DNA from: a virus
Virus record (IMG/VR): IMGVR_UViG_3300012983_003032
DNA: 64,000 nucleotides
Strand: one strand, 5' to 3'
The notes beneath the pieces are model-generated. The model was not told where the DNA came from and did not search any database. It saw only the letters and a program-made list of their open reading frames with translations. Below are positions 17,076 through 40,429 of the stretch, one piece after another (positions within the stretch are counted from its first letter, which is position 1; the number at the start of each line of letters is the position of its first letter). Position numbers and translations under genes: made by a program.

Positions 17076-17116
17076 ATAATTATATTAACAAAATTGAATC
17101 CTTCTAAGAATTAGAT

Positions 17117-17126
17117 ACTAATTTAG
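17117..17126 (+). promoter_or_regulatory. TACTAATTTA motif instance (candidate phage middle/late promoter element)
   Basis: Same decamer as at 26981. Related ACTAATT cores at 30057, 38958 and 40418, all upstream of structural genes. Confidence 0.3.
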
Positions 17127-17196
17127 GTAAGATAGTTTATCTTTTTTAAAATTACTTCGTGGCAACAAAAAATGTTGTATATATGGGAGAAAAGAG

Positions 17197-19695
17197 ATGG
17201 CATTAGTAAGAATGAGAGAAAGTCTTTGTATGCCTGCAAAGTACTATCAGGATATTACAGATACTGCACCAGCAAGTATTAAAGAATCTTTGAATAGTGC
17301 TAGACAGTCAGGAAGACTTACTGAGTCTACAAATGTAACAGTTAACTCTTTAGTTAAGATTCTTAGAGAGTCTAATATTGACGAAACTACTGTAGGAAAA
17401 GTAGTTACAAAATTAAAGTCTGACGGTGTTAACTTACAGGAACATAAGATTTATCGTGTTCCTATCAGTAGAATTAACCACCCAGAAAGAGGTGAGTTTA
17501 ATGGTAACGGTAGAGGATACAGCTCTGAGTTATGGCATAATGTAATGGACAATCAACAAGATGCTTGGAAAGGTCTTTGTGGGTTGGCAGACCACCCTAC
17601 AGACGACAACGACCCAGGTTCTTTCAAAAATAGTTCTATTGTTTGGTTAGGTATGGAAGTAGATGACCTCAATGATTTGGTATATGGTATCGGTTCTTTT
17701 GTAGGACCTTATGGTCATTTGGCACAGGAAATCATTGATTGTGGTGGTCGTGTAGGATTCAGTTCTTCTGGATTTGGTGAACTTATGCCTGACGGACATA
17801 CAGTAAACCCAGACACATATCAAATTGAACGTCTTGCAGACGTAGTATTAAATCCTTCACAGGACGTATACGGTGCAATTAACGACGAACAACGTAATAT
17901 CGAATACAGTGGTCCTAAAGAGGCAGTTGCTTCAACAGGAAATCAAAGAAATGGTATAAGCACATCTTATGGTGAATCTCGTGTATCATATAAACAATAC
18001 AATACATATAAGGAGTCAAACTCAATGGAAAATAACGGAATTAACTCAGCTTTTTCAAAAGTTAAGGAAAAGGAACTTAGAAAATATATTAAAAATTATT
18101 TAAATGAAAATACTGCAATCACTAATCCTATTAAGCAGTTGAAAGACCTTGAAGAAATTAGAGGTCTTATTCAGGAAGGTCAGTTAGAAGACCTTGAACC
18201 AGAAGTTCTTGCAAGAATGGAAGAAGCTAACAATAAGATTGAGGCAGCCGTAGAAAAGGGTATGAAAATCCAAGAAACAGAGGTAACTGTTTCTACTCCA
18301 GACGGAATCAATATCACTTTGAATGGTGACGGTGGTGCAGCACCTGTTTCAACTGCAATGGACGTTACTACACCTATAGACGGTGAAGTTTCTCTTGATG
18401 ATGAAGAAGAAACTTTCTTGGAATCAAACAAAATTGTAAAGGGTAAAAAACTTACAAAAGCACAGGAAAAATCAGTTCGTGCATATGTTAATAACTTTAT
18501 GAACGAATCTCACGAAGGTATGAACCCTCTTAAAGTTTATACTGACTTGACAGAAGTACTTGAATTGGTACGTGAATCTAAGTTTGACGACTTGGAAGAA
18601 GGTGTAGTTTCTAAACTTGAAGAAACTGCAAAACAGATGGAAAAAGACCTTAATGATGCTGTTACTATGAAAGCTAAACTTGGTTCTAAAGACCTTGCAG
18701 AAATTACTGAAAAAACTCAGGGTATTTTGGAAAAAGGTGAATTACTTGTTGAACAGTGTGCAGACTATAAAACTCTTTGTGAGGCACTTTCAAATAGAAA
18801 CCAAGAATTGGTTAAAGAATATCAAGCTTTGAAATTGAAGTTTGACCTTAATGAGTCTAAAGAAGAAGACTCAGTTCTTGCAAGAAATCAGAAAGTTGCA
18901 GAACTTGAAAATAAACTTGAAGAAGCAACAAAGAAATATGATGAACTTGACTTTGCTGCTGGTAGTAAAATGGCTGAACTTAACGAAGCTTTAGGAAAGG
19001 CAACAAAAGGTAATGTCAAACTTGAAAAAGAACTTGGTATTGCAAATTCTAAATATAAAGAAGCAACTGAAAAACTTAACAGTATGAAGACTTTCTATGA
19101 GTCTGAATTAGCAAAGTTGTCAGAAAAGAATAAAGAACTTGAAGAGTCATTAAAAACTAAAGAGGCAGAGGCTTCTAAGTTTGGTGAATCAATTGATAAT
19201 GTTCTTGCACAATTTAAGGCTTTACAAGAGTCAAATGCACAATTAACTGAAGAAGTTAAGAATTTAAAGGAAAATAAAACTTCTGACACTAATGAAGAAG
19301 TAGCTGAAGACACTTCTTCTGAAGAACCAAAAGACGAAAAGAAACCAGCTACTTTGGAAGAAGCAGTTTCTTTCAAAGACAGTGGAGTAGAAGGTTTCTG
19401 GAATGACTTACATACAAAATATGGTGAAGCCGTAGAACCTTATGAAATGAAGATTCGTGGACAGAAAACAATGCGTGAAGCTCAACTCGCTTGGATGGGA
19501 GTTATGAATAAAGTAGACGCAAATTTAAGAGTTGTTCAGGAAACTACATTTTATAAAAATGGTGTAATCTCACAAGGTCAAAGACTTCATAAATTGCACG
19601 AATGTGGTATGTTAACTTCAAAAGATGTTGAACAAGACGTTAATGAAATAAATGCAAGATTCCTTGCTAAAATGAAGGCTGCAGGTTTAAATTAA
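17197..19695 (+). CDS. virion morphogenesis protein: N-terminal globular domain plus ~450-aa C-terminal coiled coil (scaffold/prohead-protease-like organisation)
   Basis: 832 aa. The C-terminal half is heptad-rich and highly charged. Function inferred only from architecture and position. Confidence 0.55.
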   Translation: MALVRMRESLCMPAKYYQDITDTAPASIKESLNSARQSGRLTESTNVTVNSLVKILRESNIDETTVGKVVTKLKSDGVNLQEHKIYRVPISRINHPERGEFNGNGRGYSSELWHNVMDNQQDAWKGLCGLADHPTDDNDPGSFKNSSIVWLGMEVDDLNDLVYGIGSFVGPYGHLAQEIIDCGGRVGFSSSGFGELMPDGHTVNPDTYQIERLADVVLNPSQDVYGAINDEQRNIEYSGPKEAVASTGNQRNGISTSYGESRVSYKQYNTYKESNSMENNGINSAFSKVKEKELRKYIKNYLNENTAITNPIKQLKDLEEIRGLIQEGQLEDLEPEVLARMEEANNKIEAAVEKGMKIQETEVTVSTPDGINITLNGDGGAAPVSTAMDVTTPIDGEVSLDDEEETFLESNKIVKGKKLTKAQEKSVRAYVNNFMNESHEGMNPLKVYTDLTEVLELVRESKFDDLEEGVVSKLEETAKQMEKDLNDAVTMKAKLGSKDLAEITEKTQGILEKGELLVEQCADYKTLCEALSNRNQELVKEYQALKLKFDLNESKEEDSVLARNQKVAELENKLEEATKKYDELDFAAGSKMAELNEALGKATKGNVKLEKELGIANSKYKEATEKLNSMKTFYESELAKLSEKNKELEESLKTKEAEASKFGESIDNVLAQFKALQESNAQLTEEVKNLKENKTSDTNEEVAEDTSSEEPKDEKKPATLEEAVSFKDSGVEGFWNDLHTKYGEAVEPYEMKIRGQKTMREAQLAWMGVMNKVDANLRVVQETTFYKNGVISQGQRLHKLHECGMLTSKDVEQDVNEINARFLAKMKAAGLN

Positions 19696-19704
19696 TCTTT
19701 AATT

Positions 19705-19740
19705 TACCCTACTTTTTAGTAGGGTAAAAAACTTTTTAAG
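19705..19740 (+). terminator. intrinsic terminator (taccctact-tttt-agtagggta + T-rich)
   Basis: 9-bp perfect stem. Confidence 0.55.
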
Positions 19741-19753
19741 AGAGGAACATAAA

Positions 19754-21691
19754 GTGAGTTATAAAGACGAACAAATAAGTAAATATGTAAATAACGTTTA
19801 TCACTTGAATGAAAAAAATGCTGTTGCAAGAAATATTGACTCCTTAAGAGCACAAGGTAAGACTGATGACGAAATTCGTGCATTAAATCCTGTATATGCT
19901 CAAGAACTTGATAGGCAGGCAAGTAATATCAATGTTAAAGATAATTTTGATAAAGTGCGTCAAGCTAAAGATGCTGCAGTCAGAGCTCAGGACAGGGCTA
20001 ATTTGTATCAAACTGACAAGTTTGATATGGCCGCAGATAAAGCTAGGGCAAATGTTCATAAATCAGAACAAGACTTAGAGGCTGCAAAAGCACAGGCTAA
20101 GATAAATGCAGAACAAAATAGACAAGCTAGAGAAGATGCTCGTCTTGCTGACCTAGACGCATATAATGCTACTAAAAAAGCACAGGCTAAAGATAACCTT
20201 GATAAAAAGGCTTATGATGCTATGCACGAGTTGGAAAAAACAAAACAAGAACTTGAGCAGGCTAAAAAAGAGTTGGAAGAACTTAAAGCTAAGGCTGCAC
20301 AAGGTGACTTAAACGCTGCAAAAGAAGCAGAAAAGGTAGAAGACGTTGTAGACCAAAAAACAGAAGAAGTCCAAGAAGAACAGGCAGAAGTAGAAAATGC
20401 AAAAGATGAGACAACAACTCCTCCAACTGCAGAAGAATTAAATACTGGTGCAGAAACTACTACTACTCAGACTTCTCCAGAAGAAACTACTACTCAGACT
20501 TCTCCAGAAGAAACTGCAAATGCACAGGCTACTGCAGAGGCAGCAGCAACACAGTCTGCAATGGAAATTAAACCTACTGACACACCTGAAATTCAGCAGG
20601 CAAAACAGAACTTCCAGCAGGAATGGGCAGACTTGAAGACACAGATTGGCAGTATTCAGGATACTACTAAAAAGTTGATGGCTTCTCCAATTGCAACTTC
20701 TTATGTAAAACAGAGACCAGACCTTGCAACTAAGTTCCAGAAATTTGGTGGTGCATTGGCAGCAATGGGTTCTATTGTTGGTTTAGCTGGTATGATTACT
20801 ATGTTTATAAATCCTGCATTAGGTGGTATTTTATCTGCCGCAGGTAGAACTATGGTTGGTGCTGGTGGTGCTACAGCCTCTGGTGCAAATGCCGTTAAAC
20901 AGTTTAAGAATGGAAACGTACTTGGTGGTATAGGAAGCCTTGCAGCGGCAGGAATGTCAGGTGCAATGGCAGGTATGGGTGTTAAGAGTTTAGCAGGTAA
21001 TATTGGTACTATGCAAGCCGCAAATGCTGCACCAGCAGTTTCAACTGGTGCTACAGATGCAAATCCTGTAAATGGTAATACTACTCAGTCATTTACACCG
21101 GGTTCAAATCCTGCACAGTTTACTAACAGAGAGCCTACTATTGCAAATACAAATGACGCTGTAGCAAATGCACGTCCAGGTGATGTATTACAGAGGAATG
21201 ACGGAACAAGGATTGAGATTAATCAAGGAGATATAAATTGGGCAAAGGCACATCAAGCTCAACCAGTAGTACCACAGACTACACCTCAAGTTGGGGCACA
21301 GACTGTAAATACAGGTATTCCATTGCTTAACCAAAATGCAGGAACTCCAAACTTTGGTAATATTACATTACCTCAGGGTGTAGTACAGCCAAAGTTCTTG
21401 AATGACTATAATGCTTATAAGAGTCAGACTCAACCAAATCCTTTATTTAATTCAAGTGCTAATCCACTTAGTCCTAACTTGGGAAATATTAAGGTTCCTC
21501 AGGGCATATTGCAGCCAAATTTGAATGACTACAATGCTTATAAGACACAACCTAGTATGAACTTGTCTCAAGGTGTAAATATTGGTGGTAACAATCCACC
21601 AAATTGGATGCCAAGTTCTTGGTCTCAACCTCATCAACTTGCCCCAAATGTAAGTATTCCTTATGTAAATACAGTGGGTAATAATAGGTAA
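19754..21691 (+). CDS. structural protein: coiled-coil N-terminus, Thr-rich tandem repeat, Gly/Ala-rich hydrophobic segment, Q/N/P-rich C-terminal repeats
   Basis: 645 aa. Duplicated TTTQTSPEE; internal repeat PQG(V/I)(V/L)QP(K/N)(F/L)NDYNAYK(S/T)Q. Confidence 0.55.
   Translation: MSYKDEQISKYVNNVYHLNEKNAVARNIDSLRAQGKTDDEIRALNPVYAQELDRQASNINVKDNFDKVRQAKDAAVRAQDRANLYQTDKFDMAADKARANVHKSEQDLEAAKAQAKINAEQNRQAREDARLADLDAYNATKKAQAKDNLDKKAYDAMHELEKTKQELEQAKKELEELKAKAAQGDLNAAKEAEKVEDVVDQKTEEVQEEQAEVENAKDETTTPPTAEELNTGAETTTTQTSPEETTTQTSPEETANAQATAEAAATQSAMEIKPTDTPEIQQAKQNFQQEWADLKTQIGSIQDTTKKLMASPIATSYVKQRPDLATKFQKFGGALAAMGSIVGLAGMITMFINPALGGILSAAGRTMVGAGGATASGANAVKQFKNGNVLGGIGSLAAAGMSGAMAGMGVKSLAGNIGTMQAANAAPAVSTGATDANPVNGNTTQSFTPGSNPAQFTNREPTIANTNDAVANARPGDVLQRNDGTRIEINQGDINWAKAHQAQPVVPQTTPQVGAQTVNTGIPLLNQNAGTPNFGNITLPQGVVQPKFLNDYNAYKSQTQPNPLFNSSANPLSPNLGNIKVPQGILQPNLNDYNAYKTQPSMNLSQGVNIGGNNPPNWMPSSWSQPHQLAPNVSIPYVNTVGNNR
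20453..20506. repeat. 27-bp perfect tandem duplication (gaaactactactcagacttctccagaa x2)
   Basis: Direct reading of the sequence; in-frame within CDS 19754..21691. Confidence 0.8.
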
Positions 21692-23644: not shown

Positions 23645-23681
23645 TTTTTGAACCTATGTAGATATTTTTTACTAATTGTAC

Positions 23682-24735: not shown

Positions 24736-24832
24736 TCTAATATTTAGTCAAGCAAAATGTTTTTTAAAAAAGTGTTAATATGTTAGTAAGTCCACAGTAT
24801 TGTGGGTATATTTATTTTTAAGAGGTGATATT

Positions 24833-25051
24833 TTGTCACAGGTTGTAAAAGTAATCGTAGAGGACACAGGTCATCCTGAAAAAGACCTTGAACGAGCTCT
24901 ACGTAAATTCCGAAAGGAAGAAGAAGCCGAAGACATTCTTAATGAAATTAAGAAACGTCAGTATTTTACAAAACCTTCTGCTATAAAACATGAACAGAAG
25001 AAACATTCAGCACACAAGGCTGAATTAGAAAAAAAAGAAAAAGGAAGGTGA
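24833..25051 (+). CDS. rpsU: ribosomal protein bS21 homolog (phage-encoded)
   Basis: MSQVVKVIVEDTGHPEKDLERALRKFRKEEEAEDILNEIKKRQYFTKPSAIKHEQKK parallels E. coli bS21 ([47 protein letters not shown]). TTG start at 24833 with AAGAGGTGA SD; the table ORF from 24800 is an upstream TTG extension. Confidence 0.75.
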   Translation: MSQVVKVIVEDTGHPEKDLERALRKFRKEEEAEDILNEIKKRQYFTKPSAIKHEQKKHSAHKAELEKKEKGR

Positions 25052-26201: not shown

Positions 26202-26876
26202 TTAAAGATTATTAATCAAAATAAGTGCAACAAAATAAAGACTAAATCGGATTAGTTCTTTAAGTAATTTAATACAAAAAGTTTTGAAAACTCCAGATGC
26301 AGAATTTTTTTCTGCTTTCCTAATTTTAAAGTTCGCAAATTCGTTATAAAGACTATCTACCAATTTTTTAATTTCGTTTTGTTCTTTTTTAAGAACAGCA
26401 ATGTCTTCTTCATTTTCAGTAATTTCTTCATTTTGAGCTTGGTCAATTTTAACAGACTCAATTTTTACTTCATTTAAATCATTTTTTACTTTTTTAATAA
26501 TTGAATCATTTTTTATGTCTTTTTCTTTCAAATCTTTAATTTTATCTTTCAATTCACTATAGTCTTTAACACTAGCTGCTTTGATTGCTTGAATTTCTTT
26601 GTCAATTTTATTTTCCAAGTTTTGTACTTTAGAAAGTTTAACTCCTTCTTTTGCTAATTCATCTGTTTTCTGAATTAACTCATATACTTTTTGGAACAAT
26701 AATTCATCAATCTCATCTTGAGACTTGTTTGTTTTACTAACAGCTGAAGTTTCATCTATCAAAAGATTAACATAATCTGTCAATTCTTTGATAGCAGCAG
26801 TCTGAGCTTCATTAACTTTAGTATTTGTGTTAATCTTTTCAAGCTCTTCTTTTAATTTCGCTAATAACTCATTCAT
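26202..26876 (-). CDS. coiled-coil protein with C-terminal TM anchor (224 aa)
   Basis: Heptad-rich E/K sequence; C-terminal LYFVALILINNL. Confidence 0.5.
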   Translation of the reverse strand: MNELLAKLKEELEKINTNTKVNEAQTAAIKELTDYVNLLIDETSAVSKTNKSQDEIDELLFQKVYELIQKTDELAKEGVKLSKVQNLENKIDKEIQAIKAASVKDYSELKDKIKDLKEKDIKNDSIIKKVKNDLNEVKIESVKIDQAQNEEITENEEDIAVLKKEQNEIKKLVDSLYNEFANFKIRKAEKNSASGVFKTFCIKLLKELIRFSLYFVALILINNL

Positions 26877-26912: not shown

Positions 26913-26934
26913 ACACTAATACCCTAATTAGTGT
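26913..26934. promoter_or_regulatory. hairpin/palindrome acactaat-acccta-attagtgt
   Basis: Perfect 8-bp inverted repeat sharing the CTAATTAGTGT core with 30057-30070. Confidence 0.3.
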
Positions 26935-26980
26935 AAACTAATTGCAACTTTTAAACCTGCTATGTTTTCATAATTCTCCC

Positions 26981-26990
26981 TACTAATTTA
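26981..26990 (+). promoter_or_regulatory. TACTAATTTA motif 33 nt upstream of the 1000-aa structural gene
   Basis: See motif finding. Confidence 0.3.
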
Positions 26991-27023
26991 ATAATTTTAC
27001 TTTTATTTTAAGGAGAATAATAC

Positions 27024-30000
27024 ATGAAATCATTTCGTCTTATATTTGTAGACCAAGATGAAAGCTATACAGTACAAACTGTTACTAGCCCTATTAAAGG
27101 TTTCATTTCAGTACGTGCCCCTAAAGGTACAACTGAAGCAATGTATTTTGAATACGGAAATGAAAAGGCAATAGATGCTATGATAGGTCTTGGTACTGCT
27201 GATTGGCCTGATATTAAAGAGGCAGTGGCATTTAACAGGTCTTATGGACTTTATATTTCTGCACCACCAGGAAATTGTGAAGACTACCCTACATATTATG
27301 GTGGATGTTATTTAACAACAAAAGGTTTATTTAACTTCTGGAGAGTAAATGACCCAGACGAACCTTCTTTTGATATTCAAGTTTACCCAGGATTTGAAAA
27401 TGTAGACTATGATGAAACTTTTGCTAAGTCAGAAATTGATGTTGTAGATATCAATACTGAGGCAGGAAAATCTTCTATTATTAAGATTACAAATATCGAC
27501 GCAAGAGTTTTCCAGAGAATGTCTTACTTTACTCTTAAATGTTGGGCAGACACTTCTACAAGAATTGGTGAAAATGAAGAAATTAAATATCACTTGGTAA
27601 ACGGAAAGATTTTCTCAGTTTATGACGACGAAGATTCTGAAATTCAAGCAGGTTTCTATGAACTTACAAGTGACGGTACTTATAATATCATTTTAGGTGC
27701 AACCGCAATTACTTCTCAAGACGATATCGTTCCAATTGATAAAAACATTACTACAGTTGTTGTTGTAACACCTTCTGCTACTAACGGTGGAGAAACTACT
27801 ACAGTAAGTTCTTTCTCTAGAGCAAGATTTGTAAGTACTTATAAATTAAAAGAAGGAAGATTCTTCTATAAAGATAAGGCTTGCACTGTACAGGCTGGTA
27901 TTTCTTCAACTGACGCAGATGGAAACACTATTACTGAGGATATGCCATCTACAGTATATGTAAAGGCAGCAGATATTGACACATTAAATGTAACAAAATA
28001 TACACCATCAAAGAATACTTTGAGTACACCTCATGTACCATACTTTGATATGACAAAGTTCTTGGGTGAGTATAACGCATTTGATATTTCAACAATTTAT
28101 TCTGATGATATTGAAGGACTTACAGGTCTTGAACTTATTAGATATCTTATCTTGAATGGATGTAGTAGTCTTGTTACTCTTAAAGGTAAGTTCAATAATG
28201 CAAATGTTGAAAAATACATTACTCCTACAGTTGGTCTTGTAGATAGAATCTACTGGAATATCAATGTAAAGAATGACTGTTTTATGTACGTTTCTCAGAA
28301 GTCACCTAACGAAACTCCTACTTCTATCACTATTAGTAACATTGGTTATGATAAGTATAAGTATGATATGCACGTTAGCTACATTTTGAAATCTGACTTC
28401 GACAAATTCAGAGACGGCTCTGTTGCACCTGACGGATTTATCAAAGCTGTTATTGCAAGTAATGCTGACGGTATTATTGACGTAGTAACTTCTACAGCTG
28501 AAAAAGACTTCTTAACACCAAGTACTAACCTCCATGCACTTTATCAGTATAGTACTGTAACAGGTGAATGGGTAGACGTTACACCAAATTATAAGACTAA
28601 GACTTTCTATATTGACGGACCTTTGGATTGTAAAGGTGTTAATGATAATAGTACAGTTAATGCTTTCTGTAAGTATACAATCTGGAAGATTGTAAATGTA
28701 AAAAAACCTGACTCATTTGAACATGAAACATATCAGATGAAGAATGGTGGAAACTATCCTTTGAAGTCTGATATTAACTATAACACTGTAACTATTTCTT
28801 GTAAAGAAAAAGTTTACCCAGGTACTTATACAACTGGTGGTACACATTATGGTTCTTTGAACCCAGAAGGTGTAGATGCAGCAGGAACAAATATTTATTT
28901 CCCTAACGTTCTTCCTAATGAAGAAACTGCTACATTCTTTAATGTTTATCCAGTTCATACTTTAGAGGAATTAGGTTGTGTAAATGATAATGGATTCTAT
29001 ACTGGTGTTAAGATTGTTGACCCAATCGGACCAGAACAAGATACATATACATTTACTATTAAAGGTCAGAGACCTATGACAGCCGCAGTTCAGGCTAACA
29101 TTGATGCAGGTACTGTAGGATGTGCTTGGACAACTAACGAAGTTTATGGTACTAGAGTAGACGCAATCTTCGAGGCTGCAATTAATGACTCTATTATTGA
29201 ATGTCAGGACGATATCTATGACGATGCACTTGTTATTATGGAATGTTCTGGACAGGAAGTATTTAAGTCTGCTTTAATGTCTTTAAGACAATCTCACCGT
29301 GATACAAGTACTATTATCTCTCCAAAGATTATTACTAAGGCAGAGTTTAATAATCCAAATACTATTGTAGTAAATGGTCGTGTAACAGGTACTGCACAGT
29401 ATATCGGTGAATTCAAGATGTATGACTCTAACACAGGTAAGTATTACTGGTGTCAACCAATTGGTGACGTTGGTGCTATGCTTGCTCGTATTATGGAAAA
29501 GAAATATGGTGGAATTGCACCTGCGGGTACAAATGATAGTCAGGGTCTTGGTGGTGTTCTTCCAAGAGCAGTTCTTGCTGCAAAGTGGAACTTCAAAGAT
29601 TCTCAGTTACAGATTCTTGACGGAAAAGGTTTGAACCCTATCACATTTGACTCAAAATATGGTCTTATGATGCAAGGTCAGAAAACAACTCAAGACCCAG
29701 ATAACGTAACTGACTGGTCTTACCTTGGACACTCAATGTCATTTGACTTGTGTAAACGTGAAATCCGTGATAACGTAATGGTTAAACAAGTTCACAAACG
29801 TATTAGTGATAACTACTTCACTATTCGTGAAAAGCAGGTTAAGGCTATCCTTGACAAACGTACAACTGGTAATGACCCTATTTGGGCACTTGCTACTGTT
29901 GACGTTGCTGGTGTTAATACTCCTTCAACTATGGCACAGAGAAAGTTCTGTATCAAGGTTAAAGTTAAAGTGTACGTGTACAGCGATTTTGTGGAACTCA

Positions 30001-30026
30001 CATTCGTTACGCTCGGACAGGAGTAA
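27024..30026 (+). CDS. large virion structural protein (1000 aa), beta-rich
   Basis: Strong SD AAGGAGA. T/S/N/V-rich composition typical of capsid/sheath/fibre proteins. Unusual C-terminus KVKVKVYVYSDFVELTFVTLGQE. Confidence 0.6.
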   Translation: MKSFRLIFVDQDESYTVQTVTSPIKGFISVRAPKGTTEAMYFEYGNEKAIDAMIGLGTADWPDIKEAVAFNRSYGLYISAPPGNCEDYPTYYGGCYLTTKGLFNFWRVNDPDEPSFDIQVYPGFENVDYDETFAKSEIDVVDINTEAGKSSIIKITNIDARVFQRMSYFTLKCWADTSTRIGENEEIKYHLVNGKIFSVYDDEDSEIQAGFYELTSDGTYNIILGATAITSQDDIVPIDKNITTVVVVTPSATNGGETTTVSSFSRARFVSTYKLKEGRFFYKDKACTVQAGISSTDADGNTITEDMPSTVYVKAADIDTLNVTKYTPSKNTLSTPHVPYFDMTKFLGEYNAFDISTIYSDDIEGLTGLELIRYLILNGCSSLVTLKGKFNNANVEKYITPTVGLVDRIYWNINVKNDCFMYVSQKSPNETPTSITISNIGYDKYKYDMHVSYILKSDFDKFRDGSVAPDGFIKAVIASNADGIIDVVTSTAEKDFLTPSTNLHALYQYSTVTGEWVDVTPNYKTKTFYIDGPLDCKGVNDNSTVNAFCKYTIWKIVNVKKPDSFEHETYQMKNGGNYPLKSDINYNTVTISCKEKVYPGTYTTGGTHYGSLNPEGVDAAGTNIYFPNVLPNEETATFFNVYPVHTLEELGCVNDNGFYTGVKIVDPIGPEQDTYTFTIKGQRPMTAAVQANIDAGTVGCAWTTNEVYGTRVDAIFEAAINDSIIECQDDIYDDALVIMECSGQEVFKSALMSLRQSHRDTSTIISPKIITKAEFNNPNTIVVNGRVTGTAQYIGEFKMYDSNTGKYYWCQPIGDVGAMLARIMEKKYGGIAPAGTNDSQGLGGVLPRAVLAAKWNFKDSQLQILDGKGLNPITFDSKYGLMMQGQKTTQDPDNVTDWSYLGHSMSFDLCKREIRDNVMVKQVHKRISDNYFTIREKQVKAILDKRTTGNDPIWALATVDVAGVNTPSTMAQRKFCIKVKVKVYVYSDFVELTFVTLGQE

Positions 30027-30044: not shown

Positions 30045-30197
30045 CCACTACAGCCTACTAATTAGTGTTAATATATATACTAAGGAGTAGGCTTCAAGTT
30101 TAAAACTTATAATGATTTAATAACCTTTGCAGTAAGCAGAAATTGGAATAGGAACTCATATGAATATTTAGAGTTACATCATATTTTACCAAAAAAT

Positions 30198-31166: not shown

Positions 31167-31279
31167 TTGTATTTTTATTTTTAAAAATAATTATTTTTTT
31201 AACTACCCCACACGTAAAATCAAATATTTAAGATTTGTTAATATATTTTTATAAATATAAAATTTTGGAGGTTAAAGCA

Positions 31280-32773
31280 ATGTTATTTATTGCAGGTATT
31301 GTAGCAGTAGTACTTTTGATATTACTGTTTATTACATCTTACATTAAGGCTTCACCTGATGAGGCTTTAATTGTTTCAGGTCTTCGTAAAAAACCAAAGA
31401 TTATTATTGGTAAGTCGGGATTTAGAATTCCTTTCTTGGAAAAGAAAGACCGACTCTCTCTTAAACTTATCCCTATTGATGTAAAAACCAGCTCGTCTGT
31501 ACCGACTGCAGACTATATCAACATTAATGTTGACGCAGTAGTAAACGTAAAAGTTTCAGATGACTTTGAAAAAATTAATCTTGCAGCACAGAACTTCTTG
31601 AATAAAGATACTGAAAAAATTGGTGCAATTGCCCGCGAGGTACTTGAGGGTAATATGCGTGAGATTGTAGGACAGATGACATTGGAACAGATGGTTTCTG
31701 ACCGACAAACTTTTGCCGAAAAAGTAAAGGATAATGCAGCTCCAGACCTTGCAAAGATGGGATTGGATATTGTTTCTTTTAATGTTCAGAACTTTATTGA
31801 TAATAATAATGTTATTGAAGACCTTGGTGTTGATAACATTACTAAAATTCGTAAAAAGGCTGCAATTGCAAAGGCACAGTCTGAAAAGGAAATTGCTGTT
31901 GAACAAGCTAAGGCTCGTAAAGAGGCAAATGACGCAAAGATTGAGTCTGATACACAGATTGCTATTAAAGAAAATGCACTTGCATTGAAGAAGTCTGAAT
32001 TGGACGCAAAAGCGGGTACTGAAAAGGCAAAGGCAGATGCAGCATATAAGATTCAACTTGAGGAACAGAGGAAAACTCTTGAAATTACAACTGCAAACGC
32101 AAATATTGCAAAGCAGGAAAAAGAGGTAGAAATCCGTCGTAAAGAAGTAGAAGTCCAGGAACAAACTCTTGACGCACAAATCAAGAAACAAGCAGAGGCA
32201 GATAAGTATGCAGCATTACAAAAAGCCGACGCAGATTTGTATACTCGTCAGAAAGAGGCTGAGGCAAGAGCATTTGAACTTCAAAAACAAGCTGAGGCAG
32301 AGGCTTATCAGAGACAGAAGAAAGCAGAGGCAGATAAAGCTGCAATGGAAAATGAAGCAACTGGTAAGAAAGCTCTTGCAGAGGCTGTTCAGGCACAAGG
32401 TGAGGCAGAAGCCGAGGCAATTAAAGCTAAACTTGTTGCAGAAGCTGATGGTATGCGTGAAAAGGCAGAGGCACTTAAAGAATATGGTGATGCTGCTAAA
32501 CAACAAATGCAACTTGACGCACTTAAAGTTTACTTTGAACAGTTGCCAAAGATTGCAGAGGCAGCAGGTAAAGCATACCAGAGTGTTGACAAGATTTATA
32601 TGTACGGTGGAGACTCTTCAAAGTTGCAAAGTGATATTATGAAGAATGTTACACAGGTTTCAGAGGGTCTTGGTCAGACAATGGGTATTGACCTTAAAAC
32701 ACTTCTTGGTGCTTTCGTAGGTAGTAAACTTGCTGGCAAAGGCACAGACTTAGAATTGCCTAAGACAGAATAA
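31280..32773 (+). CDS. SPFH (band-7/flotillin-like) membrane protein with long coiled-coil EA-rich tail
   Basis: N-terminal TM MLFIAGIVAVVLLILLFI, then a YqiK/flotillin-like SPFH core (ALIVSGLRKKPKIIIGKSGFRIPFLEKKDRLSLKLIPIDV...INVDAVVNVKV), then a ~250-aa KAEA-repeat coiled coil. ATG at 31280 after GGAGG; the table ORF from 31235 is an extension. Confidence 0.75.
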   Translation: MLFIAGIVAVVLLILLFITSYIKASPDEALIVSGLRKKPKIIIGKSGFRIPFLEKKDRLSLKLIPIDVKTSSSVPTADYININVDAVVNVKVSDDFEKINLAAQNFLNKDTEKIGAIAREVLEGNMREIVGQMTLEQMVSDRQTFAEKVKDNAAPDLAKMGLDIVSFNVQNFIDNNNVIEDLGVDNITKIRKKAAIAKAQSEKEIAVEQAKARKEANDAKIESDTQIAIKENALALKKSELDAKAGTEKAKADAAYKIQLEEQRKTLEITTANANIAKQEKEVEIRRKEVEVQEQTLDAQIKKQAEADKYAALQKADADLYTRQKEAEARAFELQKQAEAEAYQRQKKAEADKAAMENEATGKKALAEAVQAQGEAEAEAIKAKLVAEADGMREKAEALKEYGDAAKQQMQLDALKVYFEQLPKIAEAAGKAYQSVDKIYMYGGDSSKLQSDIMKNVTQVSEGLGQTMGIDLKTLLGAFVGSKLAGKGTDLELPKTE

Positions 32774-34026: not shown

Positions 34027-34185
34027 ATGGACTTTGAAGACTTTGCAAAAACTGAAATTTTTAAACTTTTATTTAAAAAGTTCACAGTTGCAGGTACAGA
34101 GGGGGAACTCTACAAGGTAATGCAGCAGTATTATAATGAAGTAGAGTATTTTTTGAATTTAAATAAGGAGGACGACGGGAAATGA
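34027..34185 (+). CDS. hypothetical small protein (52 aa; not in ORF table)
   Basis: ATG 34027 after GAGGTGA. Stop TGA overlaps the next ATG (ATGA). Confidence 0.3.
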   Translation: MDFEDFAKTEIFKLLFKKFTVAGTEGELYKVMQQYYNEVEYFLNLNKEDDGK

Positions 34186-34667
34186 CATATGCCAAGTTAG
34201 AAAGAATTGCGTGTAGACTAAGACAGCGTGCAGATGAAGAGTGGAAAAAATTAGATGGTTTTTATCCAGCAAAAAAATTAGATACTCAAGAAGATTGGGT
34301 AGAGTTTGACGGTGACGATTATTTTACACAGATTAAATTCTATTGGGACTGCTCAAATGTTCTTACTAGTATCGAAAATATCTTGCTTGACGCAAGAGAA
34401 GTTTCTAGTATGGTAGTAATTCTTAAATATGAGGATGATTTTCTTAAAAAATTGGATAGTGAAGTTAATAAGACTAGGTCTACTATGAAGTCTCTTAATT
34501 ATGAGACTTCCACAATAAGGATTGATTTTTCAAAATTGTTGGAAACTTATGAAAAACAGAGAAAAATTGTTGCGTCTCTTGAAGAGGATATTCAGGCTAA
34601 AAAACTAGAAACTAATGTAGAGGTTAGTCAGGAGATAATGACTTTCCTTGATAAATATGCTAACTAA
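34182..34667 (+). CDS. hypothetical protein (161 aa)
   Basis: SD AAGGAGG upstream. Confidence 0.45.
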   Translation: MTYAKLERIACRLRQRADEEWKKLDGFYPAKKLDTQEDWVEFDGDDYFTQIKFYWDCSNVLTSIENILLDAREVSSMVVILKYEDDFLKKLDSEVNKTRSTMKSLNYETSTIRIDFSKLLETYEKQRKIVASLEEDIQAKKLETNVEVSQEIMTFLDKYAN

Positions 34668-34673
34668 TTCTTA

Positions 34674-34702
34674 AAGGCACCCAATTTGGGTGCCTTTTTT
34701 AA
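34674..34702 (+). terminator. intrinsic terminator (aggcaccca-attt-gggtgcct + TTTTTT)
   Basis: Perfect stem plus T-run. Confidence 0.65.
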
Positions 34703-36935: not shown

Positions 36936-36954
36936 CTCTTAAAAAATAATAATT

Positions 36955-37449: not shown

Positions 37450-37716
37450 CTATAAGATAGTGAGATACAAAGATGTACCTACAAGTTCACTCTTTAGATA
37501 ACCATCTTCAATTTTTACACTTGAAATAACATCTAAGTTTTTAAGAACATTTGCAGGACCTTTAATTTGGATTTTTTCGTAATCTTGGTCGTCACTTAAA
37601 GAAATTCCGTCATCTCGTATGTCCGCAATGATATAGTCTGTAAAAGATTGACCACCATCTAAACTGACTTTTATAGTTTCTACTGTTGTTGGTAATTTTG
37701 TAAATTTAATTCTCAT
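37450..37716 (-). CDS. hypothetical protein (88 aa)
   Basis: Abuts the downstream gene. Confidence 0.45.
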   Translation of the reverse strand: MRIKFTKLPTTVETIKVSLDGGQSFTDYIIADIRDDGISLSDDQDYEKIQIKGPANVLKNLDVISSVKIEDGYLKSELVGTSLYLTIL

Positions 37717-37777
37717 ATAATTTAATTAGTAAAATGATATGACTATCTTATTACTGGACCATTATAACTAAATAATT

Positions 37778-38224
37778 ATGGACAACTTGAATAAGATTGT
37801 ATATTATGCACAGGCTTTTGCAAATGACCTCAAATATATTTATCTTCACTGTATGGGTAAAGATTTCGACACAATTCGTACATTATCAAATGAATTATGG
37901 ATAGAGTTAAATGCCGAAATAGATGAAATGTCAGAAATATTTATTCTTAACGGTATTGAAATAGATAATCCAAGTGAAATAAAGTCACAGTTAGACTTTG
38001 ACACAGAATGGCCAGCCACAAATAATCAAATTATTCAATTCCAGGACTTTGTACAAGAGTTAAAAATTAAAGGGTCAAAGTATTTATTGGAATTAGAAAA
38101 TGCTGCACTTCCAAAAGATATAAAGTATATATATATTAACTTTTGGAGAAATAAAGTACTTTTTAGAAGCCAAAGGTATGCAGTACCCGAAAATAATTTT
38201 GATAGGTTGGGTGAAGATGATTAA
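37778..38224 (+). CDS. hypothetical protein (148 aa)
   Basis: ORF. Confidence 0.4.
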   Translation: MDNLNKIVYYAQAFANDLKYIYLHCMGKDFDTIRTLSNELWIELNAEIDEMSEIFILNGIEIDNPSEIKSQLDFDTEWPATNNQIIQFQDFVQELKIKGSKYLLELENAALPKDIKYIYINFWRNKVLFRSQRYAVPENNFDRLGEDD

Positions 38225-38657
38225 TTTTAATCCTATACGAGCAGAAGTACTTTTTAATCAAATTGATAAGTTCTCAAGATATTTCCCTTTTTCTGTGGAC
38301 TATATAGGGTGCCCTGAATTTAGGACAGAAAAATATGAATGGTTTTTTATTACTGACGATTCATTCAGTACTGCTGAGGAAAAAGAAACTTGGTTAGGAT
38401 TAGTTTGCGTTACTGAAAACAAATATTTAGGTGGGCAGAATATACATTTAAGTGTATTAGAAGTTGCAGAACCATTAAGAAACTTAAATATAGGTACTTC
38501 AATAGTAGATAGATTTATTGATATCTCTAGGAGAAGTGGATATGAGACCTTATCTCTACAAATTAGAAACAGAGACCTTTTAAGGTTCTATAGACGATTT
38601 GGATTTAGGGACGTAATTTTAAAAGGAGGTATGGAACTAGAAGTTCTAGATTTATGA
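38178..38657 (+). CDS. GNAT-family acetyltransferase (probable); true start possibly ATG 38217
   Basis: RNLNIGTSIVDRFI (acetyl-CoA motif) and C-terminal FYRRFGF. Confidence 0.5.
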   Translation: MQYPKIILIGWVKMINFNPIRAEVLFNQIDKFSRYFPFSVDYIGCPEFRTEKYEWFFITDDSFSTAEEKETWLGLVCVTENKYLGGQNIHLSVLEVAEPLRNLNIGTSIVDRFIDISRRSGYETLSLQIRNRDLLRFYRRFGFRDVILKGGMELEVLDL

Positions 38658-38935
38658 TATTAGAGTCAAGAAAAAAAGTTGAACAATTACAAGTTAAGGG
38701 AGTAGACTTGGTTAAAAATTATATTAAGACTCCCATAGAACAACAGAATGTTGAGGATAGTATTAATATATTTTTATATATTAAAAATCTTTTTTGTCAA
38801 GCACTTATTGGTAGTAAAATATTTGATAGATATGTAACATTATCAAACTTCATAACAAGTGACAAGTCTAAATTAGAGTTTTTTACTAGTTCTCATACAA
38901 AAAAAGAGATACAATTATTTCTTGAAAATTGCTAA
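38654..38935 (+). CDS. hypothetical protein (93 aa)
   Basis: ATGA overlap with upstream gene. Confidence 0.35.
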   Translation: MILESRKKVEQLQVKGVDLVKNYIKTPIEQQNVEDSINIFLYIKNLFCQALIGSKIFDRYVTLSNFITSDKSKLEFFTSSHTKKEIQLFLENC

Positions 38936-38957
38936 ATTTTTCATTTTTTGAAACTCG

Positions 38958-38967
38958 ACTAATTCAT
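38958..38967 (+). promoter_or_regulatory. GACTAATTCA motif 30 nt upstream of gene 38998
   Basis: See motif finding. Confidence 0.25.
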
Positions 38968-38997
38968 AGAGTATTTTAATTTGGAGGAAAATTTTTA

Positions 38998-40107
38998 ATG
39001 GCAGAAATTAGAGATTCTGACGAAAATTATGGTTTCAAACCTAGTAAACCATCAGTAGAAGAGCTTCTTAAAGAAACACAAGAAAAAGTAAAAGAAATTG
39101 AAGAAATCCCAGCAGGTTATATTACTGTAGAACTCTCTGAAGAGGGGGAGTATTATGCACCTAAAGTTTTTCATATGAGAGACTTTAATACTGAGGATAT
39201 TTTGAACCTTGCAATTGCAGACGATAGTGAAGTAATTGTTAGGACGGCAAATATGCTAGATGACCTTATTTGGGAAAAAGATGTTTCTGTTAAAAACTTT
39301 ACTGACAAGGAAGTAACTGAAACTGTATTTACTCTTTACAAGACATTCTATAATCCGATTATGAAAGGGCAAGAATATACACCTACTAAAGAGGATATGG
39401 ATTTTCTTGCAAAACAAAATGGTGGAAGAGAGTCTGCAGAGTTTAAGCAGATTGAAAGAGACCTTAAAACAGGTCAGTGGAAGCCAACATTTGATATTGA
39501 CTTAAATAAAGTTGTCCCTTATAAAAAGCCTGCAAAAGCAACAAAAACCGCAACAGTAACAAAACCTAATGGATTTTCTTGTAAGTATGCTATGCCTAGG
39601 TATGGTGATACAATTGTTCTCAAGAATTATGTAGAAGAATTTTGGGCAGATGAGGATAGAAAATTTGAACCTATTACTCAAATGCTTAAAGACGCTGAGG
39701 ATATGAGGAGAAGATTTAGGGAAGGAGAAAATATTAATTTACTTTCTATCCCTAAACCAACAAAAGAAGATATGAAAAGGTATAATGACTATGTTATGAA
39801 AAGAAATGCTTTTTCTATGACAGCTCTTAGGGCACTTCATTTGATTGAATTCCGTGGTCAGGACGTTTCAAACTTAACCCTTAGTGAAAAATATAAAATG
39901 GCACAAGACCCTGAATTGGATTTGCCTACATTTAAAAAAATTAATGAGGCATTTAACAGTGTTAAAATAGGTTTACCAGATAAAATTAAAATTATCAGCC
40001 CAATTACAAACCGGGAGGTGGAATACGAATATAGCTTTCGTCTTCCTGTTATTCTTCAGGCCATGGGAAATAACGAATCTGATGGAACTGTTATTGACTT
40101 TGACTAA
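38998..40107 (+). CDS. tail-module protein (369 aa) immediately upstream of the tape-measure gene
   Basis: SD GGAGG. Position suggests tail tube/chaperone-region protein; no motif. Confidence 0.5.
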   Translation: MAEIRDSDENYGFKPSKPSVEELLKETQEKVKEIEEIPAGYITVELSEEGEYYAPKVFHMRDFNTEDILNLAIADDSEVIVRTANMLDDLIWEKDVSVKNFTDKEVTETVFTLYKTFYNPIMKGQEYTPTKEDMDFLAKQNGGRESAEFKQIERDLKTGQWKPTFDIDLNKVVPYKKPAKATKTATVTKPNGFSCKYAMPRYGDTIVLKNYVEEFWADEDRKFEPITQMLKDAEDMRRRFREGENINLLSIPKPTKEDMKRYNDYVMKRNAFSMTALRALHLIEFRGQDVSNLTLSEKYKMAQDPELDLPTFKKINEAFNSVKIGLPDKIKIISPITNREVEYEYSFRLPVILQAMGNNESDGTVIDFD

Positions 40108-40357
40108 AGAGACATCAACTTCTTTCAGTGAGTTATTGAAACTCCCATTTTATATTACCTATGGTATGTATAATACTTTGGTTAATTTAAATAAAAAGGA
40201 ACAAGAGGCACAAAAGAAAGAGGAAGAGGCTGCAAAGGCAGAATATAATATCCCAAATATTAATTCTTTGCAAAGTCAGGCATTATCAAGTATTAACAGT
40301 GCAACACCAAAAGTGCAGATTCCTAATATTCCTTCTTCTGGAAGTTTCCACTTGTAA
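40082..40357 (+). CDS. small protein overlapping previous ORF in the +1 frame (91 aa)
   Basis: 26-nt overlap; helical, Q/A/E/K-rich. Confidence 0.35.
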   Translation: MELLLTLTKETSTSFSELLKLPFYITYGMYNTLVNLNKKEQEAQKKEEEAAKAEYNIPNINSLQSQALSSINSATPKVQIPNIPSSGSFHL

Positions 40358-40361
40358 TTAT

Positions 40362-40393
40362 AGAAAAACCCTACAATTATGTAGGGTTTTTTA
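40362..40393. terminator. intrinsic terminator (aaccctac-aattat-gtagggtt + TTTTTT)
   Basis: 8-bp perfect stem, A-run before, T-run after. Confidence 0.55.
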
Positions 40394-40417
40394 ATTTTTC
40401 AATACTATTCACCCGTT

Positions 40418-40427
40418 CACTAATTAA
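40418..40427 (+). promoter_or_regulatory. CACTAATTAA motif immediately upstream of the tape-measure gene
   Basis: See motif finding. Confidence 0.25.
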
Positions 40428-40429
40428 AT

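What the first reader, a model, noticed from the sequence alone, without database searches (positions are those of the whole stretch)
17101..40429. Recurring (T/C/G)ACTAATT(T/A)A motif upstream of structural genes
Near-identical decamers occur upstream of five structural or adjacent genes at varying distances to the start codon: 17117-26 (TACTAATTTA), 26981-90 (TACTAATTTA), 30057-66 (TACTAATTAG), 38958-67 (GACTAATTCA) and 40418-27 (CACTAATTAA). Related CTAATTAGTGT hairpins lie at 26913-34. This looks like a phage-specific middle/late promoter or regulator-binding element.
Basis: seen in the sequence. Interest (0 to 1): 0.5.

Follow-up and report, generated by a model that had tools for sequence, protein, structure and literature searches.

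The report
Conserved ACTAATT promoter word of huge phages
A seven-base word, ACTAATT, marks the start of many tail, baseplate and mobile-element genes in a family of uncultivated 90-560 kb gut phages and is almost certainly their phage-specific, probably late, promoter, a new example of a well-known kind of signal.

Summary
The word is not over-represented in the whole window (21 copies, 31 expected). However, 16 of the 21 lie in the 8% of the window that is intergenic (2.9 expected). In eight related genomes it is the top sense-strand upstream 7-mer (30 vs 1.7, z 21.5). It is invariant in front of one orthologous gene while that protein drops to 26% identity. Inside genes it is depleted 3-4 fold on both strands. 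It is absent from 18 convergent spacers, and it points at the downstream gene (29 sense vs 4 antisense copies). There is no -35 element. Spacing is bimodal: 3-7 nt to an ATG without a Shine-Dalgarno sequence, or 14 nt or more with one. That fits a -10-type core promoter starting transcription about 5 nt downstream. The downstream genes include a T4-like baseplate-hub protein and the tail module. A second word, TGTTAATAT (an extended -10), precedes metabolic genes. The closest known signals are gp55-type late promoters (T4 TATAAATA, Aeh1 CTAAATA). The polymerase or sigma factor that reads the word was not found, and no transcript 5' ends were mapped. Verdict: new member of a known kind, of moderate interest.

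The parts
40419..40425 (+). ACTAATT copy 4 nt before the ATG of the 1066-aa gene (40430-43630), with no Shine-Dalgarno sequence, about 27 nt after terminator 40363-40392. This is the best-supported site.
   Evidence: The word is present at the syntenic position in 9 of 9 first-tier genomes and in L012, L014 and L017. In six of these genomes the downstream protein is a detectable homologue, at 69% down to 26% identity. The flanking DNA and the terminator sequence are not conserved.
38958..38964 (+). ACTAATT copy 33 nt before the ATG of the 369-aa baseplate-hub-like gene (38998-40107), 18 nt before its GGAGG.
   Evidence: Exact copy in the window, L008 and L011. Variants ACTAACT or ACTAAAT at the same place in L004, L005, L006 and L009. 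Fold match to T4-type baseplate hub proteins.
26982..26988 (+). Proximal ACTAATT copy 35 nt before the ATG of the 1000-aa gene (27024-30026), upstream of AAGGAG.
26937..26943 (+). Distal ACTAATT copy 80 nt before the same gene (27024).
26926..26932 (-). Minus-strand copy 49 nt before the ATG of divergent gene 26202-26876 (-). It forms the right arm of the 26913-34 inverted repeat.
   Evidence: Comparable opposed pairs occur in the divergent spacers of L008, L009, L010 and L011.
17117..17123 (+). ACTAATT copy 73 nt before the ATG of the 832-aa gene (17197-19695), in a divergent spacer that also holds a TGTTAATAT word serving 16302-17075 (-).
   Evidence: No diverged orthologue was available to test conservation.
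37724..37730 (-). Minus-strand copy 7 nt before the ATG of the 88-aa gene 37450-37716 (-), no Shine-Dalgarno sequence.
   Evidence: The gene is also called by the external annotation of L001.
56210..56216 (+). Copy overlapping the stop codon of 55946-56218, 24 nt before the ATG of the Cpn60-type chaperonin gene (56241-57914) and 9 nt before its GGAGG.
59232..59238 (+). Copy 29 nt before the ATG of the 171-aa gene 59268-59783.
59219..59225 (-). Opposed copy 30 nt before the ATG of a 46-aa minus-strand ORF (59048-59188), with GGAGG in between.
   Evidence: The 46-aa gene is called independently in L019 at 14248-14388.
55132..55138 (+). Copy 57-69 nt before the 159/163-aa gene (start at 55196 or 55208).
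838..844 (-). Minus-strand copy 31 nt before the ATG of the 165-aa gene 309-806 (-), upstream of GGAGG.
10140..10180 (-). Two direct copies (10140-46 and 10174-80, inside a 12-nt direct repeat 34 nt apart), 75 and 109 nt upstream of TnpB gene 8655-10064 (-).
   Evidence: A second TnpB gene in the left flank (L018 12565) also has two copies upstream.
30057..30066 (.). Palindrome ACTAATTAGT, a copy on each strand. Status ambiguous: it lies in one arm of the inverted repeat 30052-66 / 30079-93, which encloses a TGTTAATAT word, 134 nt before gene 30198.
34663..34669 (+). Copy overlapping the stop codon of 34182-34667 and followed at once by terminator 34673-34697. Probably not a working promoter.
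23671..23677 (+). Intergenic copy in the wrong orientation, between two minus-strand genes. Unexplained.

Best explanation
ACTAATT is the core promoter word of a phage-specific transcription class in a clade of uncultivated huge phages. It acts like a -10 element and has no -35 partner. The contigs are 90-560 kb, about 30-37% G+C, and one is binned with a gut Clostridia MAG.

An RNA polymerase, either the host core enzyme carrying a phage-encoded or phage-modified specificity factor or a phage polymerase, would recognise the 7-mer in double-stranded DNA and begin transcription roughly 4-8 nt past the ACTAAT.

Where an ATG lies 3-7 nt after the word, the mRNA would be leaderless or nearly so. 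Elsewhere the transcript would begin just ahead of a Shine-Dalgarno sequence.

The class serves baseplate/tail genes, a chaperonin, unknown large proteins and selfish elements (TnpB, a LAGLIDADG endonuclease), so it is most likely the late class. A second stereotyped word, TGTTAATAT (an extended -10 of the host sigma-A/sigma-70 type), serves nucleotide, NAD and replication genes.

Shown here: enrichment, conservation, orientation, avoidance inside genes, spacing geometry, and the partition by gene type.

Inferred: that the word is a promoter, where transcription starts, the late timing, and what reads it. A gp55-like late sigma factor is the leading guess because the word is one base away from the Aeh1 late promoter CTAAATA.
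For: 1. Localisation. In the window, 16 of 21 copies are intergenic against 2.98 +/- 1.73 expected. Pooled over about 335 kb from 14 distinct genomes, 70 of 89 copies are intergenic or at a gene edge, where 6.6% of the DNA lies.

2. Independent replication. In 8 relatives that were not used to define the motif, ACTAATT is the top sense-strand 7-mer in upstream regions. There are 30 copies against 1.74 expected (z 21.5), above the Shine-Dalgarno words, and 29 of 90 upstream regions carry it.

3. Phylogenetic footprint. The word is invariant upstream of the 1066-aa gene while that protein falls to 26% identity and the flanking DNA cannot be aligned. More distant loci show the same geometry.

4. 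Specificity. The exact word is 36 times denser in intergenic than in coding DNA. Single-mismatch variants are 0-4 times denser, except ACTAAAT at 5.3 times.

5. Avoidance inside genes on both strands. Sense: 7 copies against 22.9 +/- 4.3 expected. Antisense: 9 against 38.1 +/- 5.6. None of 300 codon shuffles was as low. This points to a DNA-level, self-sufficient signal.

6. Orientation. In co-directional spacers there are 29 sense and 4 antisense copies, p = 1e-5. Convergent spacers carry it in 0 of 18 cases. Divergent spacers carry opposed pairs. One 36-nt spacer in L010 consists of little more than the two copies plus a Shine-Dalgarno sequence.

7. Geometry. There is no information outside the 7-mer, so no -35 element. 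Spacing to the start codon is 3-7 nt without a Shine-Dalgarno sequence in 26 cases (mode 4), and 14 nt or more with one in 36 cases. Only one copy falls between 8 and 13 nt, the TnpB copy in L018 at 11 nt.

8. Many copies follow a terminator hairpin and T-run closely, leaving no room for another promoter.

9. Gene classes. The 369-aa product has a T4-type baseplate-hub fold (pLDDT 83, BFVD E = 7e-11). There is a weak tape-measure match at 47376. In the metabolic flanks TGTTAATAT dominates, and ACTAATT there precedes a TnpB gene, a homing endonuclease and small unknown genes.

10. Resemblance to known late promoters: T4 TATAAATA at -13 to -6 read by gp55, Aeh1 CTAAATA from -12 (PMC1524935), and jumbo phage CBB ATAAATA with a gp55-like sigma factor (PMC5259590).
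Against: No transcript 5' ends were mapped, so promoter function and the start site are inferred.

No sigma factor, gp33/gp55-like gene or RNA polymerase subunit was found in the window or in 20 kb of flanks. About 340 kb of the contig was not seen.

If the word is aligned to the Aeh1/T4 consensus, the start should lie 6 nt after the 7-mer. The commonest spacing to the ATG in the no-SD class is 4 nt, two bases too short for the T4 rule.

Several window copies do not fit a simple promoter. The copy at 23671 has the wrong orientation. The copy at 34663 runs straight into a terminator. The copy at 30057 sits inside a hairpin arm.

Most genes downstream of the word have no assigned function, so 'late' rests on a few of them.

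My gene calls for the relatives are crude (longest ORFs), which adds noise to the intergenic counts.
Confidence: 0.78

Rival explanations
1. The word is the binding site of a phage transcription factor (an activator or repressor operator) rather than the core promoter itself. A separate, weakly conserved promoter would do the initiating.
For: Opposed or palindromic arrangements exist (26926-/26937+, ACTAATTAGT at 30057, 59219-/59232+, AATTAGTACTAATT in L010), and these look like dimer sites. At 30057 the word abuts a TGTTAATAT promoter-like word, as an operator might.
Against: The spacing between opposed copies varies freely (overlapping, 0, 4, 6, 23 and about 25-30 nt), unlike a dimer operator. 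Most sites are single and strictly oriented toward the gene. In the no-SD class only 3-7 nt separate the word from the ATG, so no separate -10 element fits downstream, and nothing is conserved upstream. Sigma-70-type promoter matches are not enriched in the region (94 found, 85 expected).
Confidence: 0.1
2. The word acts in RNA, either as an endonuclease processing site that creates new 5' ends, or as a non-Shine-Dalgarno translation-initiation signal placed 3-7 nt before the AUG.
For: In 26 cases the word lies at a Shine-Dalgarno-like distance (3-7 nt) from an ATG that has no Shine-Dalgarno sequence. Sense-strand bias is expected for an RNA signal.
Against: Thirty-six copies lie 14-115 nt upstream of genes that have their own well-placed Shine-Dalgarno sequence. 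That is pointless for a ribosome-binding signal. The word is depleted on the antisense strand of genes at least as strongly as on the sense strand, which an RNA-level signal would not cause. It occurs in short divergent spacers that no upstream transcript can enter, for example the 36-nt L010 spacer. It also occurs immediately after terminators. No Rfam family overlaps it.
Confidence: 0.07
3. The word is a promoter, but it is read by a host alternative sigma factor, with no phage-encoded specificity factor involved.
For: No phage sigma factor or polymerase was detected in the 84 kb examined. The companion word TGTTAATAT looks like an ordinary host extended -10.
Against: The word is stereotyped and invariant across phages whose proteins are only 26-40% identical. 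It lacks any -35 element. From my own knowledge, not tested here, it matches no Firmicute sigma consensus that I know of. It resembles gp55-type late promoters instead. No host genome was available to test whether host genes use it.
Confidence: 0.12
4. It is a chance recurrence of an AT-rich word in AT-rich spacers.
For: The whole-window count is below expectation (21 vs 31), and the spacers are only 14-38% G+C.
Against: Dinucleotide shuffles of the spacers give 2.98 +/- 1.73 against 16 observed. Among 140 composition-matched permutations, the median intergenic count is 6 against 47 for ACTAATT. The word replicates in independent genomes.
Confidence: 0.01

Closest known systems
Late promoter of Aeromonas phage Aeh1 (a T4-like phage): CTAAATA beginning at -12, presumed to be read by a diverged gp55 (PMC1524935)
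   Same: A single 7-bp AT-rich word with a diagnostic C near its 5' end. No -35 element. Found upstream of late and structural genes. (A)CTAATT(A) differs from CTAAATA at one position. The only enriched variant here, ACTAAAT, contains CTAAAT.
   Different: The fifth base is T rather than A. An A before the C is required here. The spacing to the inferred start is about 2 nt shorter in the commonest no-SD arrangement. No gp55 homologue has been found yet. The phages are far larger and probably infect Clostridia.
T4 late promoter TATAAATA (-13 to -6), read by host RNA polymerase with gp55, gp33 and the gp45 sliding clamp (PMC1524935, PMC3184105)
   Same: Promoter logic based on a -10 element only. 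Short, highly conserved word. Associated with virion genes. In T4 the homing endonuclease I-TevI is also expressed late (my own knowledge, not checked here), as the LAGLIDADG and TnpB genes appear to be in this family.
   Different: Only 5 of 8 positions match. Dependence on a clamp or on replication is unknown. Many transcripts here would be leaderless, which is not a T4 feature.
ATAAATA motif upstream of structural genes of jumbo phages CBB and GAP32, which encode a gp55-like sigma factor (PMC5259590)
   Same: A jumbo myovirus with a bioinformatically derived short late motif and separate motifs for DNA-metabolism genes.
   Different: Different sequence. The CBB motif was found in one genome by MEME, whereas here the word is supported by cross-genome footprinting.
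Promoters of the multisubunit RNA polymerases of phiKZ- and AR9-type jumbo phages (PMC7598289)
   Same: Stereotyped, roughly 10-nt AT-rich words centred near -10, without a -35 element, that can be found bioinformatically.
   Different: In those phages such words mark early operons read by the virion polymerase. Their late promoters are minimal (TATG, or AACA-N6-TA). No split beta/beta' genes were seen in the 84 kb examined here.

Membership tests
gp55-type (T4-like) late promoter | A single conserved 7-8 bp word of the form (T/C)ATAAATA / CTAAATA centred near -10 | tested here: inconclusive
   ACTAATT(A) matches CTAAATA at 6 of 7 positions and TATAAATA at 5 of 8. The variant ACTAAAT is also enriched, 15 intergenic vs 36 coding copies. 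It is similar but not the same word.
gp55-type (T4-like) late promoter | No -35 element | tested here: met
   In 50 aligned intergenic copies, information content is 0.2 bit or less at every position from -30 to -1.
gp55-type (T4-like) late promoter | Lies upstream of late (virion and assembly) genes | tested here: met
   Baseplate-hub-fold gene, a conserved tail/baseplate block, a weak tape-measure match and a chaperonin. Metabolic genes carry TGTTAATAT instead. Expression timing itself was not measured.
gp55-type (T4-like) late promoter | The genome encodes gp55 (a small sigma factor), gp33 and a sliding clamp | tested here: inconclusive
   None was detected by Pfam or PHROGs in the 64 kb window or by precomputed Pfam hits in 20 kb of flanks. 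About 340 kb of the 425 kb contig could not be read.
gp55-type (T4-like) late promoter | Transcription starts 6 nt after the last base of the word (word at -13 to -6) | not testable with these tools
   No 5'-end data. The no-SD spacing (mode 4 nt from the 7-mer to the ATG) implies a start at least 2 nt closer than the T4 rule.
Bacterial sigma-70 / sigma-A promoter | -35 TTGACA plus -10 TATAAT, with A at the second and T at the sixth position of the hexamer | tested here: not met
   There is no -35 element. Read as ACTAAT, the hexamer has C where the essential A should be. Sigma-70-type matches are not enriched in 25-45 kb (94 found, 84.9 +/- 9.6 expected).
Jumbo-phage multisubunit RNA polymerase promoters (phiKZ/AR9 type) | The phage encodes split beta/beta'-like subunits | tested here: inconclusive
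   None of the scanned large proteins shows an RNA polymerase domain, and four large motif-associated proteins tested against PDB sequences gave no convincing match. Most of the genome was not seen, and such subunits are often too diverged for Pfam.
Jumbo-phage multisubunit RNA polymerase promoters (phiKZ/AR9 type) | A conserved AT-rich word near -10 upstream of EARLY operons | tested here: not met
   The word has the right shape, but it precedes baseplate/tail and mobile-element genes, not the replication and nucleotide-metabolism genes.

The most novel reading that the evidence does not exclude
The word is read not by a gp55 relative but by an undescribed specificity factor or phage polymerase. 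Together with the TGTTAATAT class, it would drive a largely leaderless gene-expression programme in huge phages that also carry their own ribosomal protein bS21. Promoter choice would then directly set the mode of translation: leaderless or Shine-Dalgarno-led. One possible example is the SD-sequestering repeat between the two copies upstream of gene 27024.
Probability: 0.12. Interest if true: 0.7.

Novelty: new member of a known kind. Interest (0 to 1): 0.45.

Why it matters
These phages are known only from metagenomes. They have no relatives among GenBank phage records at the sensitivity tried, and most of their proteins match no family.

A validated promoter word has several uses:
- It gives a way to split their genomes into transcription units and temporal classes from sequence alone.
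- It helps fix start codons, including genes with no Shine-Dalgarno sequence.
- It helps recognise distant clade members.
- It allows expression constructs to be designed if a host is found.

The strong avoidance of the word inside genes, and its invariance over deep divergence, suggest a simple and potent recognition system. Its reader, a gp55-like sigma factor or something else, is worth finding.

The conserved no-SD arrangement of a large baseplate-module gene is an unusual feature for a phage of a presumably Gram-positive host.

Tried and rejected
- Megablast of 14 kb of the window, and tblastn of the 369-aa and 1066-aa proteins, against 50,697 GenBank phage records: no match.
- IMG/VR scan with the single 369-aa protein: nothing. 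It succeeded only with the alignment.
- PHROGs and Pfam on the large motif-associated proteins: essentially nothing.
- Sequence searches of four large proteins and of the 369-aa profile against PDB: nothing convincing.
- Foldseek of the 369-aa model against PDB: nothing. Only the viral predicted-structure library was informative. My initial guess that this gene was the major capsid protein was therefore dropped.
- Literature searches for the word itself and for 'huge phage / promoter / leaderless' returned nothing relevant.
- No tRNA and no Rfam family in the window.
- The sigma-70 consensus scan was uninformative.
- The search for a sigma factor or RNA polymerase in the window and both flanks failed.
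- An early idea that the window was archaeal or from a giant eukaryotic virus, prompted by the eukaryote-type topoisomerase IB and the Cpn60/TCP1 gene, was rejected. Strong GGAGG Shine-Dalgarno sequences, rho-independent terminators, operon-like gene packing, a T4-type baseplate fold and a Clostridia-binned relative all point to a bacteriophage.
- The idea that the 26913-34 hairpin is a conserved structure was rejected. Relatives have opposed copies at varying spacing and no conserved stem.

Full report
**Observation**

All five cited copies exist. Three of the quoted ranges are shifted by one base. The window holds 21 copies of the core ACTAATT. That is fewer than whole-window shuffles predict (31.2 +/- 5.5), so the word is not globally enriched.

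Its placement, however, is far from random. I curated a gene map with 7.9% intergenic DNA. On that map 16 of the 21 copies are fully intergenic, and one more overlaps a stop codon. Dinucleotide shuffles of the spacers give 2.98 +/- 1.73 copies, with a maximum of 11 in 1000 shuffles. In an unbiased ranking of all intergenic 7-mers, ACTAATT is second by z-score and first among words with more than four copies (z 7.5).

The unit is therefore the 7-mer.

**What the window is**

The window lies at about 315.8-379.8 kb of a 425,174-bp metagenomic contig. Identified genes:
- a helicase, a PD-(D/E)XK nuclease and a glycosyltransferase
- a full-length eukaryote-type topoisomerase IB
- IS200/605 TnpA and TnpB genes
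- ribosomal protein bS21, an esterase, a flotillin and ThyX
- GNAT acetyltransferases, a Cpn60-type chaperonin and NAD-salvage enzymes

Most of the large proteins match nothing. GenBank phage records contain no relative.

The 369-aa protein at 38998 has 17 homologues at 91-40% identity, on contigs of up to 560 kb. One relative is a 306 kb contig binned with a 'Candidatus Fimenecus' (Clostridia) MAG, and five are in IMG/VR.

Its AlphaFold model (pLDDT 83) matches T4-type baseplate hub subunit and assembly proteins in the viral structure library (E down to 7e-11). It matches nothing in the PDB.

The gene order 369 aa, ~90 aa, ~1066 aa, ~430, ~106, ~438, ~250, ~490, ~1800 aa is conserved. There is a weak tape-measure match at 47376. 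This is the tail/baseplate module of a huge myovirus-like phage.

**Comparative test**

Upstream of the ~1066-aa gene, ACTAATT is present in all nine first-tier genomes. In eight of them it lies 4-6 nt before the ATG with no Shine-Dalgarno sequence. In L010 it precedes a Shine-Dalgarno sequence instead. In every case it follows a terminator hairpin whose own sequence is not conserved.

The protein itself falls to 26% identity. The syntenic gene in more distant loci has the word 3 nt before its ATG.

Upstream of the 369-aa gene, three genomes have the exact word and four have ACTAACT or ACTAAAT at the same place.

In the eight first-tier relatives, which were not used to define the motif, ACTAATT is the top sense-strand 7-mer in upstream regions. 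There are 30 copies against 1.74 expected (z 21.5), which ranks above the Shine-Dalgarno words. It occurs in 29 of 90 upstream regions.

Pooled over about 335 kb, 70 of 89 copies are intergenic or at a gene edge, in 6.6% of the DNA.

**Properties that discriminate between mechanisms**

(a) Specificity. The exact word is 36 times denser in spacers than in genes. Single-mismatch variants are 0-4 times denser, except ACTAAAT at 5.3 times. Among 140 composition-matched permutations, the median intergenic count is 6 against 47 for ACTAATT.

(b) Avoidance. Inside genes the word is depleted on both strands. Sense: 7 copies against 22.9 +/- 4.3. Antisense: 9 against 38.1 +/- 5.6. No codon shuffle was as low. 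Two-strand avoidance is what selection against spurious initiation on DNA would produce. An RNA-level signal would not produce it.

(c) Orientation. In co-directional spacers there are 29 sense and 4 antisense copies, p = 1e-5. Two of the four antisense cases are palindromic or near-palindromic opposed pairs that count on both strands. One actually faces a 46-aa minus-strand ORF that an external gene caller also predicts.

(d) Context. None of 18 convergent spacers has the word. True divergent spacers carry opposed copies. The extreme case is a 36-nt spacer in L010 reading gcatAATTAGTACTAATTaatcgaggactaaaaaat between two start codons. That leaves no room for any other promoter.

(e) No -35 element or other flanking signal.

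(f) Spacing to the start codon is bimodal. It is 3-7 nt (mode 4) with no Shine-Dalgarno sequence in 26 cases, and 14 nt or more with a well-placed Shine-Dalgarno sequence in 36 cases. A single case falls in between.

A gap of this kind is expected if the RNA starts a few bases after the word. The start codon is then either at the 5' end, or there must be room for a ribosome-binding site.

**Second promoter word**

Genes for the helicase operon, the SMC-like ATPase, ThyX, the flotillin, NAPRTase, an NMN-adenylyltransferase-like protein and others are preceded by TGTTAATAT. This is an extended -10 (TGn + TAATAT). It often lies exactly 6 nt before an ATG that has no Shine-Dalgarno sequence, which is the canonical sigma-70 geometry for a leaderless transcript. 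It recurs in the relatives.

The two words divide the genes by type. TGTTAATAT precedes metabolism and replication genes. ACTAATT precedes the baseplate/tail genes, the chaperonin, large unknown proteins, two TnpB genes and a LAGLIDADG endonuclease that sits inside nrdD. This is the pattern of early versus late classes.

**Mechanism**

The best-supported reading is a -10-type, -35-less core promoter of a phage-specific, probably late, transcription class, with initiation about 4-8 nt past ACTAAT.

The closest known signals are the gp55-type late promoters:
- T4 TATAAATA at -13 to -6
- Aeh1 CTAAATA from -12, with a diagnostic C (PMC1524935)
- CBB/GAP32 ATAAATA, in jumbo phages with a gp55-like sigma factor (PMC5259590)

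(A)CTAATT(A) is one base away from the Aeh1 word, and the enriched variant ACTAAAT contains it.

Two things speak against strict membership. The commonest no-SD spacing is 2 nt shorter than the T4 rule allows. No gp55, gp33, sigma or polymerase gene was found in the 84 kb I could read.

Promoters of the phiKZ/AR9 multisubunit polymerases have a similar shape, but they mark early operons (PMC7598289).

**Rivals**

I rate the rival readings low, for the reasons above:
- an operator for a transcription factor
- an RNA processing site or ribosome-binding signal
- a host alternative sigma factor
- chance

**Caveats**

- No 5'-end data exist, so promoter function is inferred.
- Gene calls in the relatives are crude.
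- Most downstream genes have no assigned function.
- Several window copies are doubtful:
  - 23671 has the wrong orientation.
  - 34663 runs into terminator 34673-97.
  - 30057 lies in an arm of the inverted repeat 30052-66 / 30079-93.
- The inverted repeat at 26913-34 is real, but it is most simply two opposed copies serving divergent genes. Relatives show no conserved stem.

**Verdict**

It is a new consensus in an unstudied phage clade. It belongs to a familiar kind of signal, so its interest is moderate.

Noticed in passing
window 3239(-), 5180(-), 5557(+), 10319(+), 17082(-), 24775(+), 30068(+), 32882(+), 62372(-); L004 2053, 4320, 4640; L005 4270; L016 18220; L018 14600; L019 2336, 3001, 6010, 7360: A second stereotyped upstream word, TGTTAATAT (extended -10: TGn + TAATAT). 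It often lies exactly 6 nt before an ATG that has no Shine-Dalgarno sequence, which is the canonical geometry for a leaderless transcript. It precedes metabolic and replication genes and is conserved in relatives. It probably marks the early, host-sigma-dependent promoter class.
   Followed up: partly
window 11795-13498 (+): A full-length eukaryote-type DNA topoisomerase IB, with Pfam Topoisom_I_N, Topoisom_I and Topo_C_assoc all strongly matched. This is an unusual gene for a bacteriophage.
   Followed up: no
window 8655-10064 (-), 13803-15421 (+); L018 12565-13767; L019 1-252: At least four IS200/605-type TnpB genes, one with a Y1 TnpA, within about 84 kb of one phage genome. Two of them each have a pair of ACTAATT copies 32-34 nt apart upstream, as if the elements are expressed from the phage's own promoter class.
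   Followed up: partly
L018 17236-20498 (left flank of the window): The anaerobic ribonucleotide reductase gene nrdD appears to be split by an insert that encodes a LAGLIDADG-type endonuclease (only faint Pfam hits). The endonuclease gene has an ACTAATT copy 31 nt before its ATG, recalling the late-promoter-driven homing endonucleases of T4.
   Followed up: no
window 24800-25051 (+), 31235-32773 (+), 56241-57914 (+), 60636-63435 (-) and L019 4662-9991: Phage-encoded ribosomal protein bS21, a flotillin/SPFH protein, a Cpn60/TCP1-family chaperonin, and a large NAD-salvage cluster (NAPRTase, a cytidylyltransferase-like adenylyltransferase, NUDIX, NAD synthase, isochorismatase, histidine phosphatase).
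   Followed up: no
window 26970-26982 / 27009-27021: A 13-nt inverted repeat (85% complementary) pairs the Shine-Dalgarno region of gene 27024 with a TTCTCCC stretch just upstream of the proximal ACTAATT copy. A transcript from the distal copy (26937) could sequester the Shine-Dalgarno sequence, while one from the proximal copy (26982) could not.
   Followed up: no
window 59048-59188 (-): A 46-aa minus-strand ORF with its own GGAGG and its own ACTAATT copy sits inside what looks like a 270-nt spacer in a plus-strand gene array. It is missed by a 60-aa ORF cut-off but is called in the external annotation of L019.
   Followed up: partly
window 5441-5570: A very AT-rich (14% G+C) divergent spacer packed with overlapping TTAATAT / ATATTAA repeats on both strands, between genes 5222-5440 (-) and 5571-5912 (+). 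It may be a cluster of early promoters or an origin-like region.
   Followed up: no
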